From: a virus
Lineage: Duplodnaviria; Heunggongvirae; Uroviricota; Caudoviricetes
Reading direction: 5' to 3' (one strand)
IMG/VR virus record: IMGVR_UViG_2541047798_000006
DNA: 41,828 nucleotides
Both the position numbers and the translations under genes were made by a program. Shown one piece after another: positions 26,571 through 37,198 of this stretch. Every line of letters starts with the position of its first letter. Within the stretch, counting starts at the first letter, position 1. The notes beneath the pieces are model-generated. The model worked only from the letters and a program-made list of their open reading frames with translations, searched no databases and had not been told where the DNA came from.

Positions 26571-26604
26571 GGAGTTTACTCACATCTGACAAAATCAATA
26601 TAAA

Positions 26605-26626
26605 CAGCCCCTCCGGAGAGGGGCTG
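26605..26626. terminator. candidate bidirectional terminator hairpin between convergent cargo ORFs
   Basis: cagcccctc-cgga-gaggggctg 9-bp perfect stem. Confidence 0.45.
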
Positions 26627-27017
26627 GAGAGTGGCGCTATGTGCCATTGCATGGTGCCGGGTGCCTCCCGGTGAATTCAGTACCAGCACCTGAATCCGCG
26701 ATTATCCCATATACCTACTCGCTGATTGCCCCACCGCACAGGGGGATTCACCATGCCAGTTTCTTTTAACAAACTCCCCGCAAACCAGACAACAGTCAAC
26801 CGCCTGAATTGTGAAGTATTTAAAAATTTCTCCCGCTAACTGATACCCGGCTAACAGTCTGGCGTTTTCTTTTTCAGCAACGGGAAAGCAACAACCACCA
26901 CACCCGCCACCAGCACACCGTCAGCCAGCACTGACATTATCCGGCTGCTGCAATGCCATTCACAAAAACAGTAAGCAATCACTTTTTACCGTAACAGGTG
27001 ATAATCCAGATATGTAT

Positions 27018-27481: not shown

Positions 27482-27558
27482 TGGCGCGCTGTACTGGATT
27501 CGAACCAGTGACCGATTGCTTAGAAGGCAATTGCTCTGTCCGGCTGAGCTAACAACGC
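27482..27558 (-). tRNA. tRNA-Arg (anticodon UCU)
   Basis: 77 nt; acceptor GCGTTGT/ACAGCGC, T-loop GGTTCGAATCC, anticodon loop CTTCTAA, 3' GCCA. Confidence 0.85.
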
Positions 27559-27571
27559 TGAATACCGATAA

Positions 27572-27652
27572 TGGACCGCCATCGGGGACCCGCCCCCCGC
27601 ACCAACAACCCTGTTATCGTGTCGTCTGCTCTTCCTGATAAGCTAATGGCGG
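27572..27652 (-). other. degenerate tRNA-like element between the two tRNAs
   Basis: acceptor CCGCCAT/ATGGCGG with T-CCA tail, D-stem GCTT/GAGC, T-stem CGGGG/CCCCG, but non-canonical T-loop GGCGGGT and no foldable anticodon arm. Confidence 0.3.
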
Positions 27653-27659
27653 TTTGTGA

Positions 27660-27735
27660 TGGTGGCCCTTGCTGGATTTGAACCAGCGACCTGGCGATTA
27701 TGAGTCGCTCGCTCTCACCACTGAGCTAAAGGGCC
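27660..27735 (-). tRNA. tRNA-Ile2-like (anticodon CAU; could be read as Met)
   Basis: 76 nt; closely resembles E. coli ileX from memory; anticodon loop CTCATAA. Confidence 0.85.
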
Positions 27736-30134: not shown

Positions 30135-30413
30135 TTACCTCCAGATGCGTTGCTGGAATGTACGGGACGGACGCGGTGGGCGTTCGGAGTAAGGCAATCT
30201 GACTGAGATTATCCAGTGACGGTAGTCGAGACTAAGAGCTTTCTTAACCTCGTATCCGCGCCTGCGGTAACACTGAATTATCCATTCAGCCTGCTCTTCA
30301 GTGCATGGAGGGTGCTGGAACCATTCAGACTTGAATGCGTGAGAATACCGCTCGTGCGTGCAGGCAAGAACGGGCGAATTATCAGAATTGTAATATTTTA
30401 CGTTGCGTGCCAT
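30135..30413 (-). CDS. hypothetical protein translationally coupled to the DUF968 gene
   Basis: 92 aa; stop at 30135-30137 one nt from the downstream start. Confidence 0.45.
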   Translation of the reverse strand: MARNVKYYNSDNSPVLACTHERYSHAFKSEWFQHPPCTEEQAEWIIQCYRRRGYEVKKALSLDYRHWIISVRLPYSERPPRPSRTFQQRIWR

Positions 30414-30479
30414 CGGTTTTCTCCGGTGGCACGGTGTTACTCAGCGGGAGTTCAGCCCCGCGCAAGATTGTAGATGAGT

Positions 30480-30731
30480 TTATTCTTCTGCAAAAGCTGA
30501 AAAGCCTGCTTTTATTCCGATCTCTTTCAGTGCCTGTAATGAAGTGACAAACTCACCTTCGCGCAAGATAAATCCGTCTGTCACTCGACCATCCACAAAA
30601 TTAATTAACGCAGCCCCATTCTTTCGCAAACACATAATGCGGTAATGACTAACAAGATTTCCATTTTCAACGCACACAGCATAGAGGCCATCTTCACAAA
30701 AAATTTTACGCAGTTCTTCGATGTTCATCAT
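30480..30731 (-). CDS. rem: Rem-like small protein
   Basis: 83 aa, placed next to hok as rem is next to hokD in Qin (from memory). Confidence 0.5.
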   Translation of the reverse strand: MMNIEELRKIFCEDGLYAVCVENGNLVSHYRIMCLRKNGAALINFVDGRVTDGFILREGEFVTSLQALKEIGIKAGFSAFAEE

Positions 30732-30846
30732 CAGAATCCTTCCGGATAATTAGCTCTCCCCTTTAAGGGACCATCCCTCTTATCCCTGCGCGCTACTTAA
30801 GTATTTTTGATTCTATTCCGGCACCGTCCAGAACTTCAAACGCGTG

Positions 30847-30878
30847 AAAATAAAAACAAAAACCCGCCGAAGCGGGTT
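30847..30878 (-). terminator. intrinsic terminator at hok mRNA 3' end
   Basis: - strand aacccgcttcggcgggtttttgtttttatttt. Confidence 0.65.
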
Positions 30879-30917
30879 AAGTGCGGGTGCGTTGAGGATA
30901 CCTGCCACATCAGAGGT

Positions 30918-30939
30918 GGCGAGGGATTTCTCCCTCGCC
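30918..30939 (-). other. 9-bp perfect hairpin just after hok stop (hok mRNA 3' structure)
   Basis: ggcgaggga-tttc-tccctcgcc. Confidence 0.6.
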
Positions 30940-30946
30940 GGGTCTC

Positions 30947-31102
30947 TTACTCCTCAGGTTCGTAAGCTGTGAAGACAGCGACCTCCGTCTGGCCGGTTCG
31001 GATTCGTACCTCGCAGAGGTCTTTCCTCGTTACCAGTGCCGTCACTATGACGGTTAAACAGATGACGATCAGGGCGATTAACATCGCCTTTTGCTGCTTC
31101 AT
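30947..31102 (-). CDS. hok: Hok-family type I toxin (HokD/RelF-like)
   Basis: 51 aa MKQQKAMLIALIVICLTVIVTALVTRKDLCEVRIRTGQTEVAVFTAYEPEE. Confidence 0.85.
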   Translation of the reverse strand: MKQQKAMLIALIVICLTVIVTALVTRKDLCEVRIRTGQTEVAVFTAYEPEE

Positions 31103-31650
31103 AGCCTGCTTCTCCTTGCCTTTCGGCACGTAAGAGGCTAACCTACATGTGTCTAGCATGAAATTGGCCTCAGATTAATGTTAAGCGTCTTGCAGGACGC
31201 GTAATGTTAACTGGGGCTTTTCTCTATCTGCCGTTGGTGTTATGCCCGAGGCAGATAGCCTCAAGCACCCGCAGCCATTCTACTTAACTACCGTTACCTC
31301 GCCAATGTGAAATCAGTCAGAAAGGCGATCCATAAGAACAATAGCAAGACAATAAATCGCCATTACAGCCGTAATAGCCAGCGCACATTTGAGAACCAGC
31401 ACCACAACCTCCTGTATTGGACGTACACCAGTCCTGATGAATATGAGGCTGTCTCGTCAGTGATTCAATACAACTATTGGGTATAGTTTCTCTGATTTTT
31501 TCTGTGGAAATGGGGCTCAACCACTAGTCATTTAATACGCAAAGTCCGATACAAGCTAACCTTCTAGTCCGCTTTGAGCGAAAAGCGGACGTTGGAAGTT
31601 TAAAACTCGCGAACTACTCAGCGTCCATTGATGCGTATTGTGTAACGTGA

Positions 31651-32295
31651 TTAACCACAGATGATATTGAAACGTTCTCCGGAAATCTTGACCATAATGT
31701 CAGACAGTTCGCTGACGGCATGGGCTTCAGATGATCCCAGAGCGTCAGGCTGAACAGCTATTACCGAAGCTCCACTTGCCAGCCCTGCTTTTATACCCGC
31801 AGATGCATCCTCAAATACCACGCATTCACCAGGCTCAAGGCCCAAAGCCAAAGCTGCTTTGATGTAACCCTCGGGACTTGGTTTTCCCGTCATTACATCT
31901 TCTGCACACACCATTACTATGGGTAAGGGGAGATTAGCCGCTTTCATCCTGTTTTCTGCAAGCATTCTGCCTGCAGAAGTGACAAGTGCCCAGCTATCCG
32001 GTGGCAGTTTTGATAAGAGTGCAGCGGCCCCTTTTACTTCAGTAACGCCTTCTGTCATGTTGATTTCAACCTCTTCGAGTGAGGCCGCGATTTTATTGGT
32101 TTTCTCACCTGCACCAATAAAATGCGTCAGTGTATCAATCGTTTGCCGCCCGTGTGCGTAAGCAATCACAGCCTGAGTATCAAGACCGTATTCTGCACAA
32201 AAATCTCTCCAGACGCTTTCCACTACGGCTGTTGAATCAACCAGCGTACCGTCCATATCGAATAAAAAACCCTTAGCGTTGAATATCATTGCCAT
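31651..32295 (-). CDS. HAD-superfamily hydrolase (phosphatase-like)
   Basis: 214 aa, DxDGTL-type motif FDMDGTLVDS near the N-terminus. Confidence 0.8.
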   Translation of the reverse strand: MAMIFNAKGFLFDMDGTLVDSTAVVESVWRDFCAEYGLDTQAVIAYAHGRQTIDTLTHFIGAGEKTNKIAASLEEVEINMTEGVTEVKGAAALLSKLPPDSWALVTSAGRMLAENRMKAANLPLPIVMVCAEDVMTGKPSPEGYIKAALALGLEPGECVVFEDASAGIKAGLASGASVIAVQPDALGSSEAHAVSELSDIMVKISGERFNIICG

Positions 32296-32318
32296 TCCTT
32301 AATGGTTGCAGAAGAAAG

Positions 32319-32957
32319 TTAATCAAACCATGTTTTTTCATCACCTTTCGCTACTCTCAGGCTGACAGCAATCTGCTCAGGCACAATTCTTGAAAGCGAC
32401 AATTCAGGCAGGTCGTTGACATCAAAAAAATCAGCATCGAGTGACTCATGGCTGATTGACAGGCTGCCACCTACTTCTTCACAGAGAAAAATCAGCTTGT
32501 AAACATGCCAGGGTAAAGGCGGATGGCCGTGAAGATTACGATCCCAAACTCCCAATAGTTTAGTCACTCTGACTTTTAATCCGGTTTCTTCTTCGACTTC
32601 TCGACGCACAGCTTCAGAAGGTGTATCTCCAACATCTGCCCATCCGCCAGGAAGACTCCATAATCCATCTGCAGCCTCTTTCACCATCAGAATACGATTA
32701 TTACGCAGGATAAACGCACGCACATCTGTTTTGGGCGTCGCGTAACCCGTTTCCGATACATGAAACAAATCATTGCGGCTAATATCAAACTGCGAACTCA
32801 GCAGTCCAGCGGCAATTTCACGCAAGGCTTCATAGCGTTCCTTGTCAAAGACGTCTTTTGAATAGGTCAGGCCTGACTGCGCGAGGGCCTTTAGTCTCTG
32901 GGCAACAAAAATAAGCTTTTCTTGGGTCAACACTTCAGACATGTTTTTCATCTTCAT
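32319..32957 (-). CDS. NUDIX hydrolase with N-terminal extension
   Basis: 212 aa; Nudix box GGWADVGDTPSEAVRREVEEETGL; 23 nt upstream of the HAD gene on the same strand. Confidence 0.8.
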   Translation of the reverse strand: MKMKNMSEVLTQEKLIFVAQRLKALAQSGLTYSKDVFDKERYEALREIAAGLLSSQFDISRNDLFHVSETGYATPKTDVRAFILRNNRILMVKEAADGLWSLPGGWADVGDTPSEAVRREVEEETGLKVRVTKLLGVWDRNLHGHPPLPWHVYKLIFLCEEVGGSLSISHESLDADFFDVNDLPELSLSRIVPEQIAVSLRVAKGDEKTWFD

Positions 32958-37140: not shown

Positions 37141-37198
37141 TTTCTGGTGACGTTTGGCGGTATCAGTTTTACTCCGTGACTGCTCTGCCGCCCTTTTT
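37141..37198 (+). ncRNA. dicF: DicF sRNA (ftsZ-targeting)
   Basis: tttctggtgacgtttggcggtatcagttttactccgtgactgctctgccgccctttttaa matches the DicF sequence from memory. Confidence 0.8.

What the first reader, a model, noticed from the sequence alone, without database searches (positions are those of the whole stretch)
30847..31320. hok-type toxin locus without relBE
The Hok protein is essentially HokD/RelF as remembered, with the expected mRNA architecture: a 9-bp inverted repeat in the 5' leader (31224-31232 / 31251-31259), a strong 3' hairpin (30918-30939) and a terminator. The upstream neighbour is not relE/relB but an unrelated 67-aa ORF and the HAD gene. This looks like a stand-alone hok/sok-style addiction locus within the nin-like region.
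Basis: partly seen in the sequence, partly recalled or inferred. Interest (0 to 1): 0.4.

Follow-up and report, generated by a model that had tools for sequence, protein, structure and literature searches.

The report
Intact hokD/sok toxin-antitoxin in prophage
This is a complete copy of a well-known small toxin gene (hokD) with its antisense-RNA antidote, sitting in an E. coli prophage; about three quarters of complete E. coli genomes carry the same kind of locus, so it is ordinary.

Summary
Window 30851-31305 (- strand) holds a complete hok/mok/sok type I toxin-antitoxin locus. The 51-aa protein is identical to E. coli K-12 HokD (RelF).

The leader matches Rfam RF01794 at 118 bits (gathering score 59). 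All the classical regulatory elements are present: hok promoter, tac/fbi 5'-3' pairing, ucb/dcb switch, a mok frame with its own SD, an antisense Sok gene with promoter and terminator, a 3' hairpin and a terminator.

Sequence shared with K-12 Qin stops 14 nt upstream of the hok ATG. K-12's relBE-hokD therefore lacks the promoter, tac, the mok start and sok, and looks like the truncated form; this copy looks like the intact one.

The locus is about 93.5% identical to hokW-sokW of Stx2 phage Sp5, which has been shown experimentally to be a working toxin-antitoxin pair. The Sok promoter stretch is identical in the two.

Leader-bearing hokD-type loci occur in 4036 of 5426 complete E. coli genomes, and RefSeq annotates them as hokD.

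- The "addiction" role is untested.
- The 67-aa upstream ORF is spurious.
- A conserved, unannotated 29-aa hydrophobic ORF lies there instead.

Already known; low interest.

The parts
31277..31305 (-). hok mRNA promoter: -35 TTGGCG (31305-31300), 17-nt spacer, -10 TAGAAT (31282-31277). Predicted start is G at about 31270.
   Evidence: Promoter scan, 9 of 12 matches. The -10 box and the start region are conserved in Sp5, Rac-442/2, mEp460 and hokC. The Rfam model starts at 31270.
30853..31270 (-). Full-length hok (mok-hok) mRNA, about 418 nt.
   Evidence: MFE -171.3 kcal/mol, z -7.74, 0 of 100 shuffles as stable. Bounded by the promoter and the terminator.
31250..31270 (-). tac (translational activator) element at the 5' end of the mRNA. 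It pairs with fbi in the full-length RNA, with ucb in the truncated RNA, and with 31242-31252 in a metastable hairpin seen in the fold ended at 30899.
   Evidence: Inverted repeats I2 and I5; folds of the full-length and 3'-shortened RNAs; Rfam consensus pairs.
31213..31219 (-). ucb (anti-SD) box. It pairs with the mok SD in the full-length RNA and with tac after 3' truncation.
   Evidence: Pair tables. The element names come from the R1 model in PMC9841398.
31168..31171 (-). mok Shine-Dalgarno GAGG, 8 nt upstream of the mok ATG.
   Evidence: Sequence. Sequestered by ucb in the full-length fold and paired with dcb (31134-31138) in the truncated fold.
30947..31159 (-). mok reading frame, 70 codons, in frame with hok. 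Its product is an N-terminally extended Hok.
   Evidence: ORF list. Same layout as the annotated MokW of VT2-Sakai and K-12 mokC/hokC, which share a stop codon. The Rac-442/2 allele has a 1-nt insertion that puts mok out of frame, as in hokB.
30947..31102 (-). hok toxin CDS, 51 aa, identical to K-12 HokD/RelF. SD AAGGAG lies at 31117-31112.
   Evidence: Pfam PF01848 at 82.9 bits; exact HOKD_ECOLI sequence; CDS invariant against K-12.
31116..31144 (+). Sok antisense promoter: -35 TTGCCT (31116-31121), 17-nt spacer, -10 TAACCT (31139-31144).
   Evidence: Coordinates. Identical to the stretch in Sp5, where sokW is expressed from its own promoter (PMC8621323). Aligns with TTGCGC-17-TATCCT of the R1-type locus. 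Too weak a consensus match (7 of 12) for the generic scan to list it.
31151..31227 (+). Predicted Sok antitoxin RNA, about 77 nt: single-stranded 5' tail, long hairpin, U-run. It is complementary to the mok translation initiation region.
   Evidence: The annotated K-12 sokC and sokB ends both map to 31151 and 31227. The sokE 3' end maps to 31226. Fold -30.5 kcal/mol, z -5.25. The R1 Sok ends implied by the primers in PMC1635323 agree.
30918..30939 (-). 3' UTR hairpin, 9 bp with a GAAA loop.
   Evidence: Perfect inverted repeat I6. Compensatory changes at 30935/30922 in Sp5 and Rac-442/2.
30882..30906 (-). fbi (fold-back inhibition) element, pairing with the mRNA 5' end.
   Evidence: Repeats I2 and I5; MFE pairs 31270-31259 with 30885-30897; duplex -38.6 kcal/mol, 0 of 200 shuffles as good. 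Still present, without its partner, in K-12.
30851..30878 (-). Intrinsic terminator of the hok mRNA: stem 30878-30861 followed by a T-run.
   Evidence: Terminator scan.
30962..30964 (-). Tyr47 codon TAC inside a UACG motif, a candidate site for TadA A-to-I recoding of Tyr to Cys.
   Evidence: Sequence; invariant in the alignment. Editing of hokD at this cysteine position is stated in bioRxiv 10.1101/2025.08.07.668861. It was not tested here.

Best explanation
This is an intact hok/mok/sok type I toxin-antitoxin module of the hokD/hokW type. It is carried in the nin-equivalent region of a Qin-type lambdoid prophage integrated next to rspB in E. coli.

Regulation, inferred from sequence and folding against the plasmid R1 model:
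1. A weak promoter makes a stable ~418-nt mRNA. Its 5' end (tac) is clamped to the 3' fbi element, and the mok SD is hidden by ucb, so the RNA is neither translated nor bound by Sok.
2. Slow 3' trimming removes fbi. tac then pairs with ucb, and the mok ribosome site and the Sok target loop open up.
3. While the short-lived ~77-nt Sok RNA is being made from the opposite strand, it binds the mok start region, blocks mok translation and hence hok translation, and the duplex is cut by RNase III.
4. When Sok synthesis stops, mok/hok is translated. The 51-aa (or 70-aa) membrane peptide then depolarises the inner membrane.

Most likely biological role, by analogy with hokW-sokW: Hok is released on prophage induction and helps lysis and phage release. 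The locus runs in the same direction as its flanking genes, which make up the replication-to-Q gene block. Read-through transcription on induction could therefore silence the Sok promoter head-on. That step is my inference and is untested.

K-12's relBE-hokD appears to be the derived, truncated form of this locus.
For: - Toxin: identical to HokD. Pfam HOK_GEF at 82.9 bits.
- Leader: Rfam RF01794, full length, 118 bits against a gathering score of 59.
- hok promoter and terminator.
- tac/fbi pairing.
- Folding switch: reproduced in silico, including the ucb-to-dcb change of partner for the mok SD and a metastable 5' hairpin in one 3'-shortened form. It matches the R1 model described in PMC9841398 and PMC1635323.
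- Sok: promoter, ends and fold.
- Closest tested relative: about 93.5% identity to Sp5 hokW-sokW, with an identical Sok promoter stretch. hokW-sokW is a tested toxin-antitoxin pair in which mitomycin C removes sokW RNA and raises HokW in a RecA-dependent way, and its deletion halves phage release (PMC8621323).
- Toxicity: the HokD coding sequence is toxic when expressed (bioRxiv 10.1101/2025.08.07.668861).
- K-12 comparison: homology ends at window 31116, 14 nt before the hok ATG, yet K-12 keeps fbi.
- Integrity: no IS element or frameshift in this copy, unlike K-12 hokA, hokC and hokE.
- Context: prophage setting and gene orientation.
Against: - No expression or toxicity data exist for this copy.
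- The Sok -10 box (TAACCT) matches only 3 of 6 consensus positions, and the generic promoter scan did not list it.
- This allele has two private changes relative to mEp460, Sp5 and Rac-442/2: a 1-nt deletion in the tac-stem loop (31242) and T for C at 30900, beside the fbi pairing. Their effect is unknown.
- Chromosomal hok loci free of IS elements were reported not to mediate post-segregational killing or to respond to rifampicin (cited in bioRxiv 10.1101/2025.08.07.668861).
- In Sp5, hokW sits in a different part of the phage genome, so its role may not transfer.
- MFE folds of truncated RNAs depend on where the 3' end is placed.
Confidence: 0.88

Rival explanations
1. Prophage addiction module. 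Cells that lose or excise the prophage lose the unstable Sok RNA, keep the stable hok mRNA, and are killed, which stabilises the prophage.
For: All the elements needed for post-segregational killing by R1 hok/sok are present. The R1 mechanism, with a Sok half-life of about 30 s and a hok mRNA half-life of about 30 min, is described in PMC1635323.
Against: The chromosomal loci hokA, hokB and hokC without IS elements did not mediate post-segregational killing (cited in bioRxiv 10.1101/2025.08.07.668861). The nearest tested relative was shown to promote phage release, not retention (PMC8621323). Strains carry up to 9 hokD-like places, and a closely related Sok from another copy might cross-protect.
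Confidence: 0.2
2. Inactive relic. The locus looks complete but is not expressed or no longer toxic, like the K-12 chromosomal hok loci.
For: Weak consensus match of the Sok -10 box. Two private substitutions in or beside structural elements. Precedent of silent chromosomal hok loci (bioRxiv 10.1101/2025.08.07.668861).
Against: There is no IS element, frameshift or truncation, unlike K-12 hokA, C, D and E. The toxin sequence is one shown to be toxic. Every regulatory element is conserved against a locus shown to work. The 3' hairpin shows compensatory changes. The locus is kept in 4036 of 5426 genomes.
Confidence: 0.08
3. Abortive-infection defence. Shut-off of host transcription by an infecting lytic phage depletes Sok, and Hok kills the cell before the invader matures, protecting the lysogen population.
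For: [quoted passage not shown]
Against: The same preprint found no enrichment of hok next to defence systems. There is no test at single copy, and none for hokD or hokW.
Confidence: 0.12

Closest known systems
hokW-sokW of Stx2 prophage Sp5 / VT2-Sakai (E. coli O157:H7 Sakai; PMC8621323)
   Same: About 93.5% nucleotide identity from the hok -10 box through fbi. The Sok promoter stretch, tac, ucb, mok SD and hok SD are identical. mok is 70 codons and in frame. Hok is 47 of 51 residues identical. Both lie in lambdoid prophages and run in the same direction as their flanking genes.
   Different: The last seven Hok residues differ (TAYEPEE here, VDYESEK in Sp5). The -35 region and everything upstream are unrelated, as is the sequence downstream of fbi. 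hokW lies next to ead/Ea22-like genes rather than in the nin region. Six substitutions fall in the Sok 5' part and the SD-to-AUG spacer.
hokD (relF) of the K-12 Qin cryptic prophage, downstream of relBE
   Same: Identical Hok protein. Near-identical 3' UTR, fbi and terminator, and the same downstream genes rem and ydfU. Same chromosomal site next to rspB.
   Different: In K-12, homology starts only 14 nt upstream of the ATG. The hok promoter, tac, ucb, mok start and the whole Sok gene are replaced by relE/relB. The relE-hokD junction is found in 1165 of 5426 genomes, against 4036 with the full leader.
hok/sok of plasmid R1 (parB), the reference system
   Same: Same order of elements: promoter, tac, ucb, Sok terminator, mok SD and ATG, Sok promoter, hok SD, hok, fbi, terminator. 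Same predicted refolding switch. Both belong to Rfam RF01794.
   Different: Sequence is divergent (60% mean column identity over the six-locus alignment). In R1, mok is out of frame with hok (my own knowledge). The Sok hairpin here carries roughly 20 extra nt, giving about 77 nt against 64 (PMC1635323). The setting is a prophage rather than a plasmid.
hokC/mokC/sokC (gef) of the E. coli chromosome
   Same: mok is in frame with hok, with the same N-terminal extension pattern (MLxTCR...). The leader is closely aligned, and the annotated sokC ends map cleanly onto this locus.
   Different: The K-12 copy is cut by IS186 20 nt after the stop codon, so it has lost fbi. Its Sok hairpin is shorter.

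Membership tests
[quoted passage not shown] | Hok/Gef-family small hydrophobic toxin | tested here: met
   PF01848 at 82.9 bits against a cut-off of 22. Exact match to HOKD_ECOLI.
[quoted passage not shown] | Conserved structured hok mRNA leader (Rfam RF01794) | tested here: met
   118 bits against a gathering score of 59, model positions 1-157 of 157, E=2e-26.
[quoted passage not shown] | mok reading frame with its own SD, starting upstream of hok and overlapping it | tested here: met
   ATG at 31159 with GAGG 8 nt upstream. 70 codons, in frame with hok as in mokC and MokW.
[quoted passage not shown] | cis-encoded antisense Sok gene (promoter, 5' tail, terminator hairpin) covering the mok translation initiation region | tested here: met
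   TTGCCT-17-TAACCT at 31116-31144. Ends at 31151 and 31227 by homology to annotated sokB and sokC. Hairpin plus U-run, z -5.25. Shown at sequence level only.
[quoted passage not shown] | Long-range tac/fbi pairing between the 5' and 3' ends of the mRNA | tested here: met
   9-nt perfect and 15-nt 87% complementary arms. Present in the MFE fold. Duplex -38.6 kcal/mol, 0 of 200 shuffles as good; hokB shows compensatory changes.
[quoted passage not shown] | ucb/dcb switch that frees the mok SD after 3' processing | tested here: met
   In-silico folds: the mok SD pairs with 31213-31217 in the full-length RNA. After fbi is removed, tac pairs with 31213-31219 and the SD pairs with 31134-31138. The real 3' processing site is unknown.
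[quoted passage not shown] | Sok RNA is expressed and neutralises Hok toxicity | not testable with these tools
   Shown only for the ~93.5%-identical hokW-sokW (PMC8621323) and for R1.
Plasmid-type addiction (post-segregational killing) module | Loss of the element kills the cell and stabilises the element | not testable with these tools
   Chromosomal hok loci are reported negative for this (cited in bioRxiv 10.1101/2025.08.07.668861). No data exist for this copy.
relBE-hokD (relBEF) operon arrangement of K-12 | relB and relE immediately upstream of hokD | tested here: not met
   The upstream genes are NUDIX and HAD hydrolases. Homology to K-12 ends at window 31116.

The most novel reading that the evidence does not exclude
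The conserved, unannotated ~300-nt module fused to the hok promoter (window 31593-31306, - strand) may encode a real 29-aa single-helix membrane peptide, MLVLKCALAITAVMAIYCLAIVLMDRLSD. It could be a functional partner of hokD-type loci, for example a second small toxin or a membrane modulator. A separate possibility is that prophage hok loci are triggered on induction by read-through early transcription colliding with the Sok promoter. That would answer the question left open for hokW-sokW of what removes Sok RNA.
Probability: 0.2. Interest if true: 0.45.

Novelty: already known. Interest (0 to 1): 0.12.

Why it matters
It matters little for discovery. The family, its mechanism and its presence in prophages are all described, and RefSeq already labels the gene hokD.

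It has some use as a reference point. It shows what the intact ancestor-like form of K-12's truncated relBE-hokD looks like, with every regulatory element mapped to the base. It also places an intact hokD in the same Qin-type prophage and chromosomal site.

For annotation, the mok frame and the Sok RNA gene are not annotated in the matching RefSeq record, and neither is the conserved 29-aa ORF upstream.

Tried and rejected
- The 67-aa ORF (31317-31520) as the upstream gene: rejected. It is frameshifted or carries stops in 4 of 7 related loci and has no Pfam or NCBIfam hit.
- A known RNA family in the upstream module or elsewhere in 30780-31680: only sub-threshold hits. The best was isrK at 26 bits against a gathering score of 50, over the hok 3' end. 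I treated these as chance.
- Stable RNA structure in the upstream module: z=-0.40, so no support. No internal direct or inverted repeats that would suggest a trans-pairing sRNA.
- Full-text search for the 29-aa peptide sequence: no papers.
- Mapping the sokE 5' end onto the window: unreliable, because hokE is too divergent around mok.
- K-12 hokC as a check on tac/fbi: uninformative, because IS186 has removed its 3' region.
- I did not run the large protein-database searches, structure prediction or collection scans. They would not change the verdict.

Full report
**What is there**

Reading the - strand of window 30400-31900 and listing ORFs shows a 51-codon ORF at 31102-30947. Its product is MKQQKAMLIALIVICLTVIVTALVTRKDLCEVRIRTGQTEVAVFTAYEPEE.
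- It matches Pfam HOK_GEF at 82.9 bits against a cut-off of 22.
- An exact-sequence look-up returns it as HOKD_ECOLI, "toxic protein HokD".
- The alignment with K-12 MG1655 shows the coding sequence is invariant.

- The leader repeat is perfect over 9 bp at 31258-31250 / 31232-31224, one base off the stated coordinates. It is part of a longer imperfect repeat.
- The 3' hairpin is 30918-30926 / 30931-30939, with a GAAA loop.
- The terminator is 30878-30861 followed by a T-run.

**Where it sits**

Window 18700-41828 is 99.98% identical to a prophage of E. coli AR_0017 that ends at an integrase gene next to rspB. That is the chromosomal site of the Qin cryptic prophage in K-12. The window also carries DicF, a Qin hallmark, and shares the dicA/dicC, rem, ydfU and intQ segments with Qin.

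The gene order around the finding is: replication O, DUF977, NUDIX, HAD, hok, rem, a hypothetical gene, DUF968 (ydfU-like), rusA, Q. All of these are on the same strand. The locus is therefore in the nin-equivalent region, and relBE is absent.

**The regulatory anatomy is complete**

- Leader: Rfam family RF01794, which models the hok leader, matches 31270-31097 over its full length at 118 bits against a gathering score of 59.
- hok promoter: TTGGCG-17-TAGAAT ends 7 nt before 31270.
- mok: it starts at ATG 31159, 8 nt after GAGG, and runs in frame into hok for 70 codons. An in-frame mok is not an anomaly. K-12 mokC and hokC share a stop codon, and VT2-Sakai annotates the same 70-aa "MokW-like" CDS. 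hokB and a Rac-type allele have mok out of frame.
- Sok promoter: on the + strand, TTGCCT (31116-31121), 17 nt, TAACCT (31139-31144) faces the mok start. The -10 box is a weak consensus match, so the generic scan missed it. It keeps T, A and the final T. It aligns with the TTGCGC-17-TATCCT stretch of an R1-type plasmid locus.
- Sok ends: transferring the annotated ends of K-12 sokC and sokB through the alignment gives the same positions both times, 31151 and 31227. The sokE 3' end maps to 31226. The R1 Sok ends implied by published in-vitro transcription primers agree (PMC1635323).
- Sok fold: the 77-nt RNA folds as a 5' tail, a long hairpin and a U-run (-30.5 kcal/mol, z -5.25).

**The folding switch**

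The full-length RNA (31270 to 30853) folds at -171.3 kcal/mol with z -7.7.
- In the full-length fold, the 5' end 31270-31259 pairs with 30885-30897 (tac/fbi). The mok SD pairs with 31213-31217 (ucb).
- The 5'/3' duplex alone is -38.6 kcal/mol, better than all 200 shuffles. hokB reaches the same pairing through compensatory changes. K-12 hokC, cut by IS186, does not.
- When the RNA is ended at 30907, removing fbi, the 5' end pairs instead with 31213-31219 and the mok SD pairs with 31134-31138 (dcb).
- When it is ended at 30899, a hairpin forms between the 5' end and the sequence just downstream of it.

These are the states of the R1 model as summarised in PMC9841398 and PMC1635323. The true 3' processing site is unknown, and MFE folds are only indicative.

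**Relation to known loci**

K-12 relBE-hokD: sequence shared with K-12 runs from rem/ydfU up to window 31116, 14 nt before the hok ATG, and then stops. K-12 therefore keeps hok, its SD, the 3' hairpin, fbi and the terminator. It lacks the hok promoter, tac, ucb, the mok start and Sok. An fbi element without its tac partner argues that the K-12 form is the derived, truncated one. This agrees with what I recall of Pedersen and Gerdes 1999, a paper I could not retrieve here.

hokW-sokW of Stx2 phage Sp5/VT2-Sakai: this is the closest characterised relative.
- Identity is about 93.5% from the -10 box through fbi.
- There is no difference in tac, ucb, the mok SD, the Sok promoter or the hok SD. One change falls in the Sok hairpin loop and six around the mok start. 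The 3' hairpin has compensatory changes.
- HokW differs from this Hok at 4 of the last 7 residues.
- hokW-sokW was shown to be a toxin and RNA-antitoxin pair. Mitomycin C removes sokW RNA and raises HokW in a RecA-dependent way. Deleting the locus halves phage release (PMC8621323).

Phage mEp460 carries a 99.2% identical copy, in a comparable position upstream of rem and the DUF968/rusA/Q block.

**How common it is**

- A 261-nt probe spanning the leader and the hok 5' end finds at least 80% coverage in 4036 of 5426 complete E. coli genomes, with up to 9 places per genome. RefSeq labels the gene hokD.
- The K-12 relE-hokD junction is found in 1165 genomes.
- The HAD-hok-rem arrangement of this window is found in 768 genomes.

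**Mechanism and role**

From sequence and folding I can show a complete hok/mok/sok module with every element of the R1 mechanism in place.

By homology I infer that Sok is expressed and represses mok/hok translation, and that Hok is made when Sok synthesis stops.

Which event triggers this in nature is not settled. I favour prophage induction with a lysis-assisting role, as shown for hokW. The locus points the same way as its neighbours in the replication-to-Q gene block, and in Sp5 the same way as the flanking ead/Ea22-like genes. Read-through on induction could therefore interfere head-on with the Sok promoter. This is my inference and is untested.

Addiction and abortive infection remain possible. 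A silent relic is unlikely given the intact state and the conservation, but it is not excluded. This allele has two private changes, a 1-nt deletion at 31242 and T at 30900.

**Seen in passing**

- The roughly 290 nt between the end of the HAD region and the hok -35 box (31593-31306) form a conserved block. It accompanies hok in other upstream contexts: next to an acetyltransferase gene in phage Evi, a DUF262 gene in strain KKo009, and an unrelated gene in phage Tritos. In strain AR_0119 the module is present but the sequence beyond it is taken up by an IS3 element.
- The block matches DNA in 1732 genomes, and no feature is annotated there in the records listed.
- A 29-aa hydrophobic ORF (GTG 31402 to TGA 31313, with SD AGGAGG) is intact in all 7. 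Its variable sites fall 2/2/8 by codon position.
- The ORF has no family match, appears in databases only as "hypothetical protein", and is not mentioned in the searchable literature.
- The block shows no unusual RNA stability.

**Verdict**

The object is a known, very common locus in its intact form. Interest is low.

Noticed in passing
window 31306-31593 (- strand); ORF 31402-31313: A conserved, unannotated ~290-nt module sits directly upstream of the hok promoter. It accompanies hokD-type loci in different upstream contexts and matches DNA in 1732 of 5426 E. coli genomes. It contains a 29-aa hydrophobic ORF (MLVLKCALAITAVMAIYCLAIVLMDRLSD) with SD AGGAGG. The ORF is intact in 7 of 7 divergent copies, and its variable sites fall 2/2/8 by codon position. 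It has no family or literature match.
   Followed up: partly
window 31567-31590 (- strand): A 9-bp hairpin, GTCCGCTTT/AAAGCGGAC, marks the upstream edge of the conserved module. It has no T-run on either strand, so it is not an obvious terminator.
   Followed up: no
window 31651-32957 (- strand): HAD-family hydrolase and NUDIX hydrolase genes sit between the replication genes and hok. They look like cargo genes of this prophage. The 3' end of the HAD gene is 98% identical to a phosphatase gene in P2-like phages such as Peduovirus P24C9.
   Followed up: no
window 30962-30964 (- strand): The Tyr47 codon TAC of hok lies in a UACG motif that is invariant among the aligned hokD/hokW alleles. hokD is reported to be recoded from Tyr to Cys at this position by TadA A-to-I editing (bioRxiv 10.1101/2025.08.07.668861).
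   Followed up: no
window 26596-26785 (-), 27485-27735 (-), 37142-37193 (+): The window also holds an STnc100 sRNA homologue (130 bits), two tRNA genes downstream of Q (annotated Ile and Arg in the matching RefSeq record), and DicF (76.7 bits). DicF is consistent with a Qin-type prophage.
   Followed up: no
window 31242 and 30900: Compared with mEp460, Sp5 and Rac-442/2, this allele has a 1-nt deletion in the tac-stem loop and T instead of C beside the fbi pairing. K-12 also has C at the second site. The effect on regulation is unknown.
   Followed up: no
window 30857-30938 (- strand): The hok 3' UTR and terminator give a sub-threshold hit to Salmonella isrK (26 bits against a gathering score of 50, E=0.002). 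It is probably chance.
   Followed up: no
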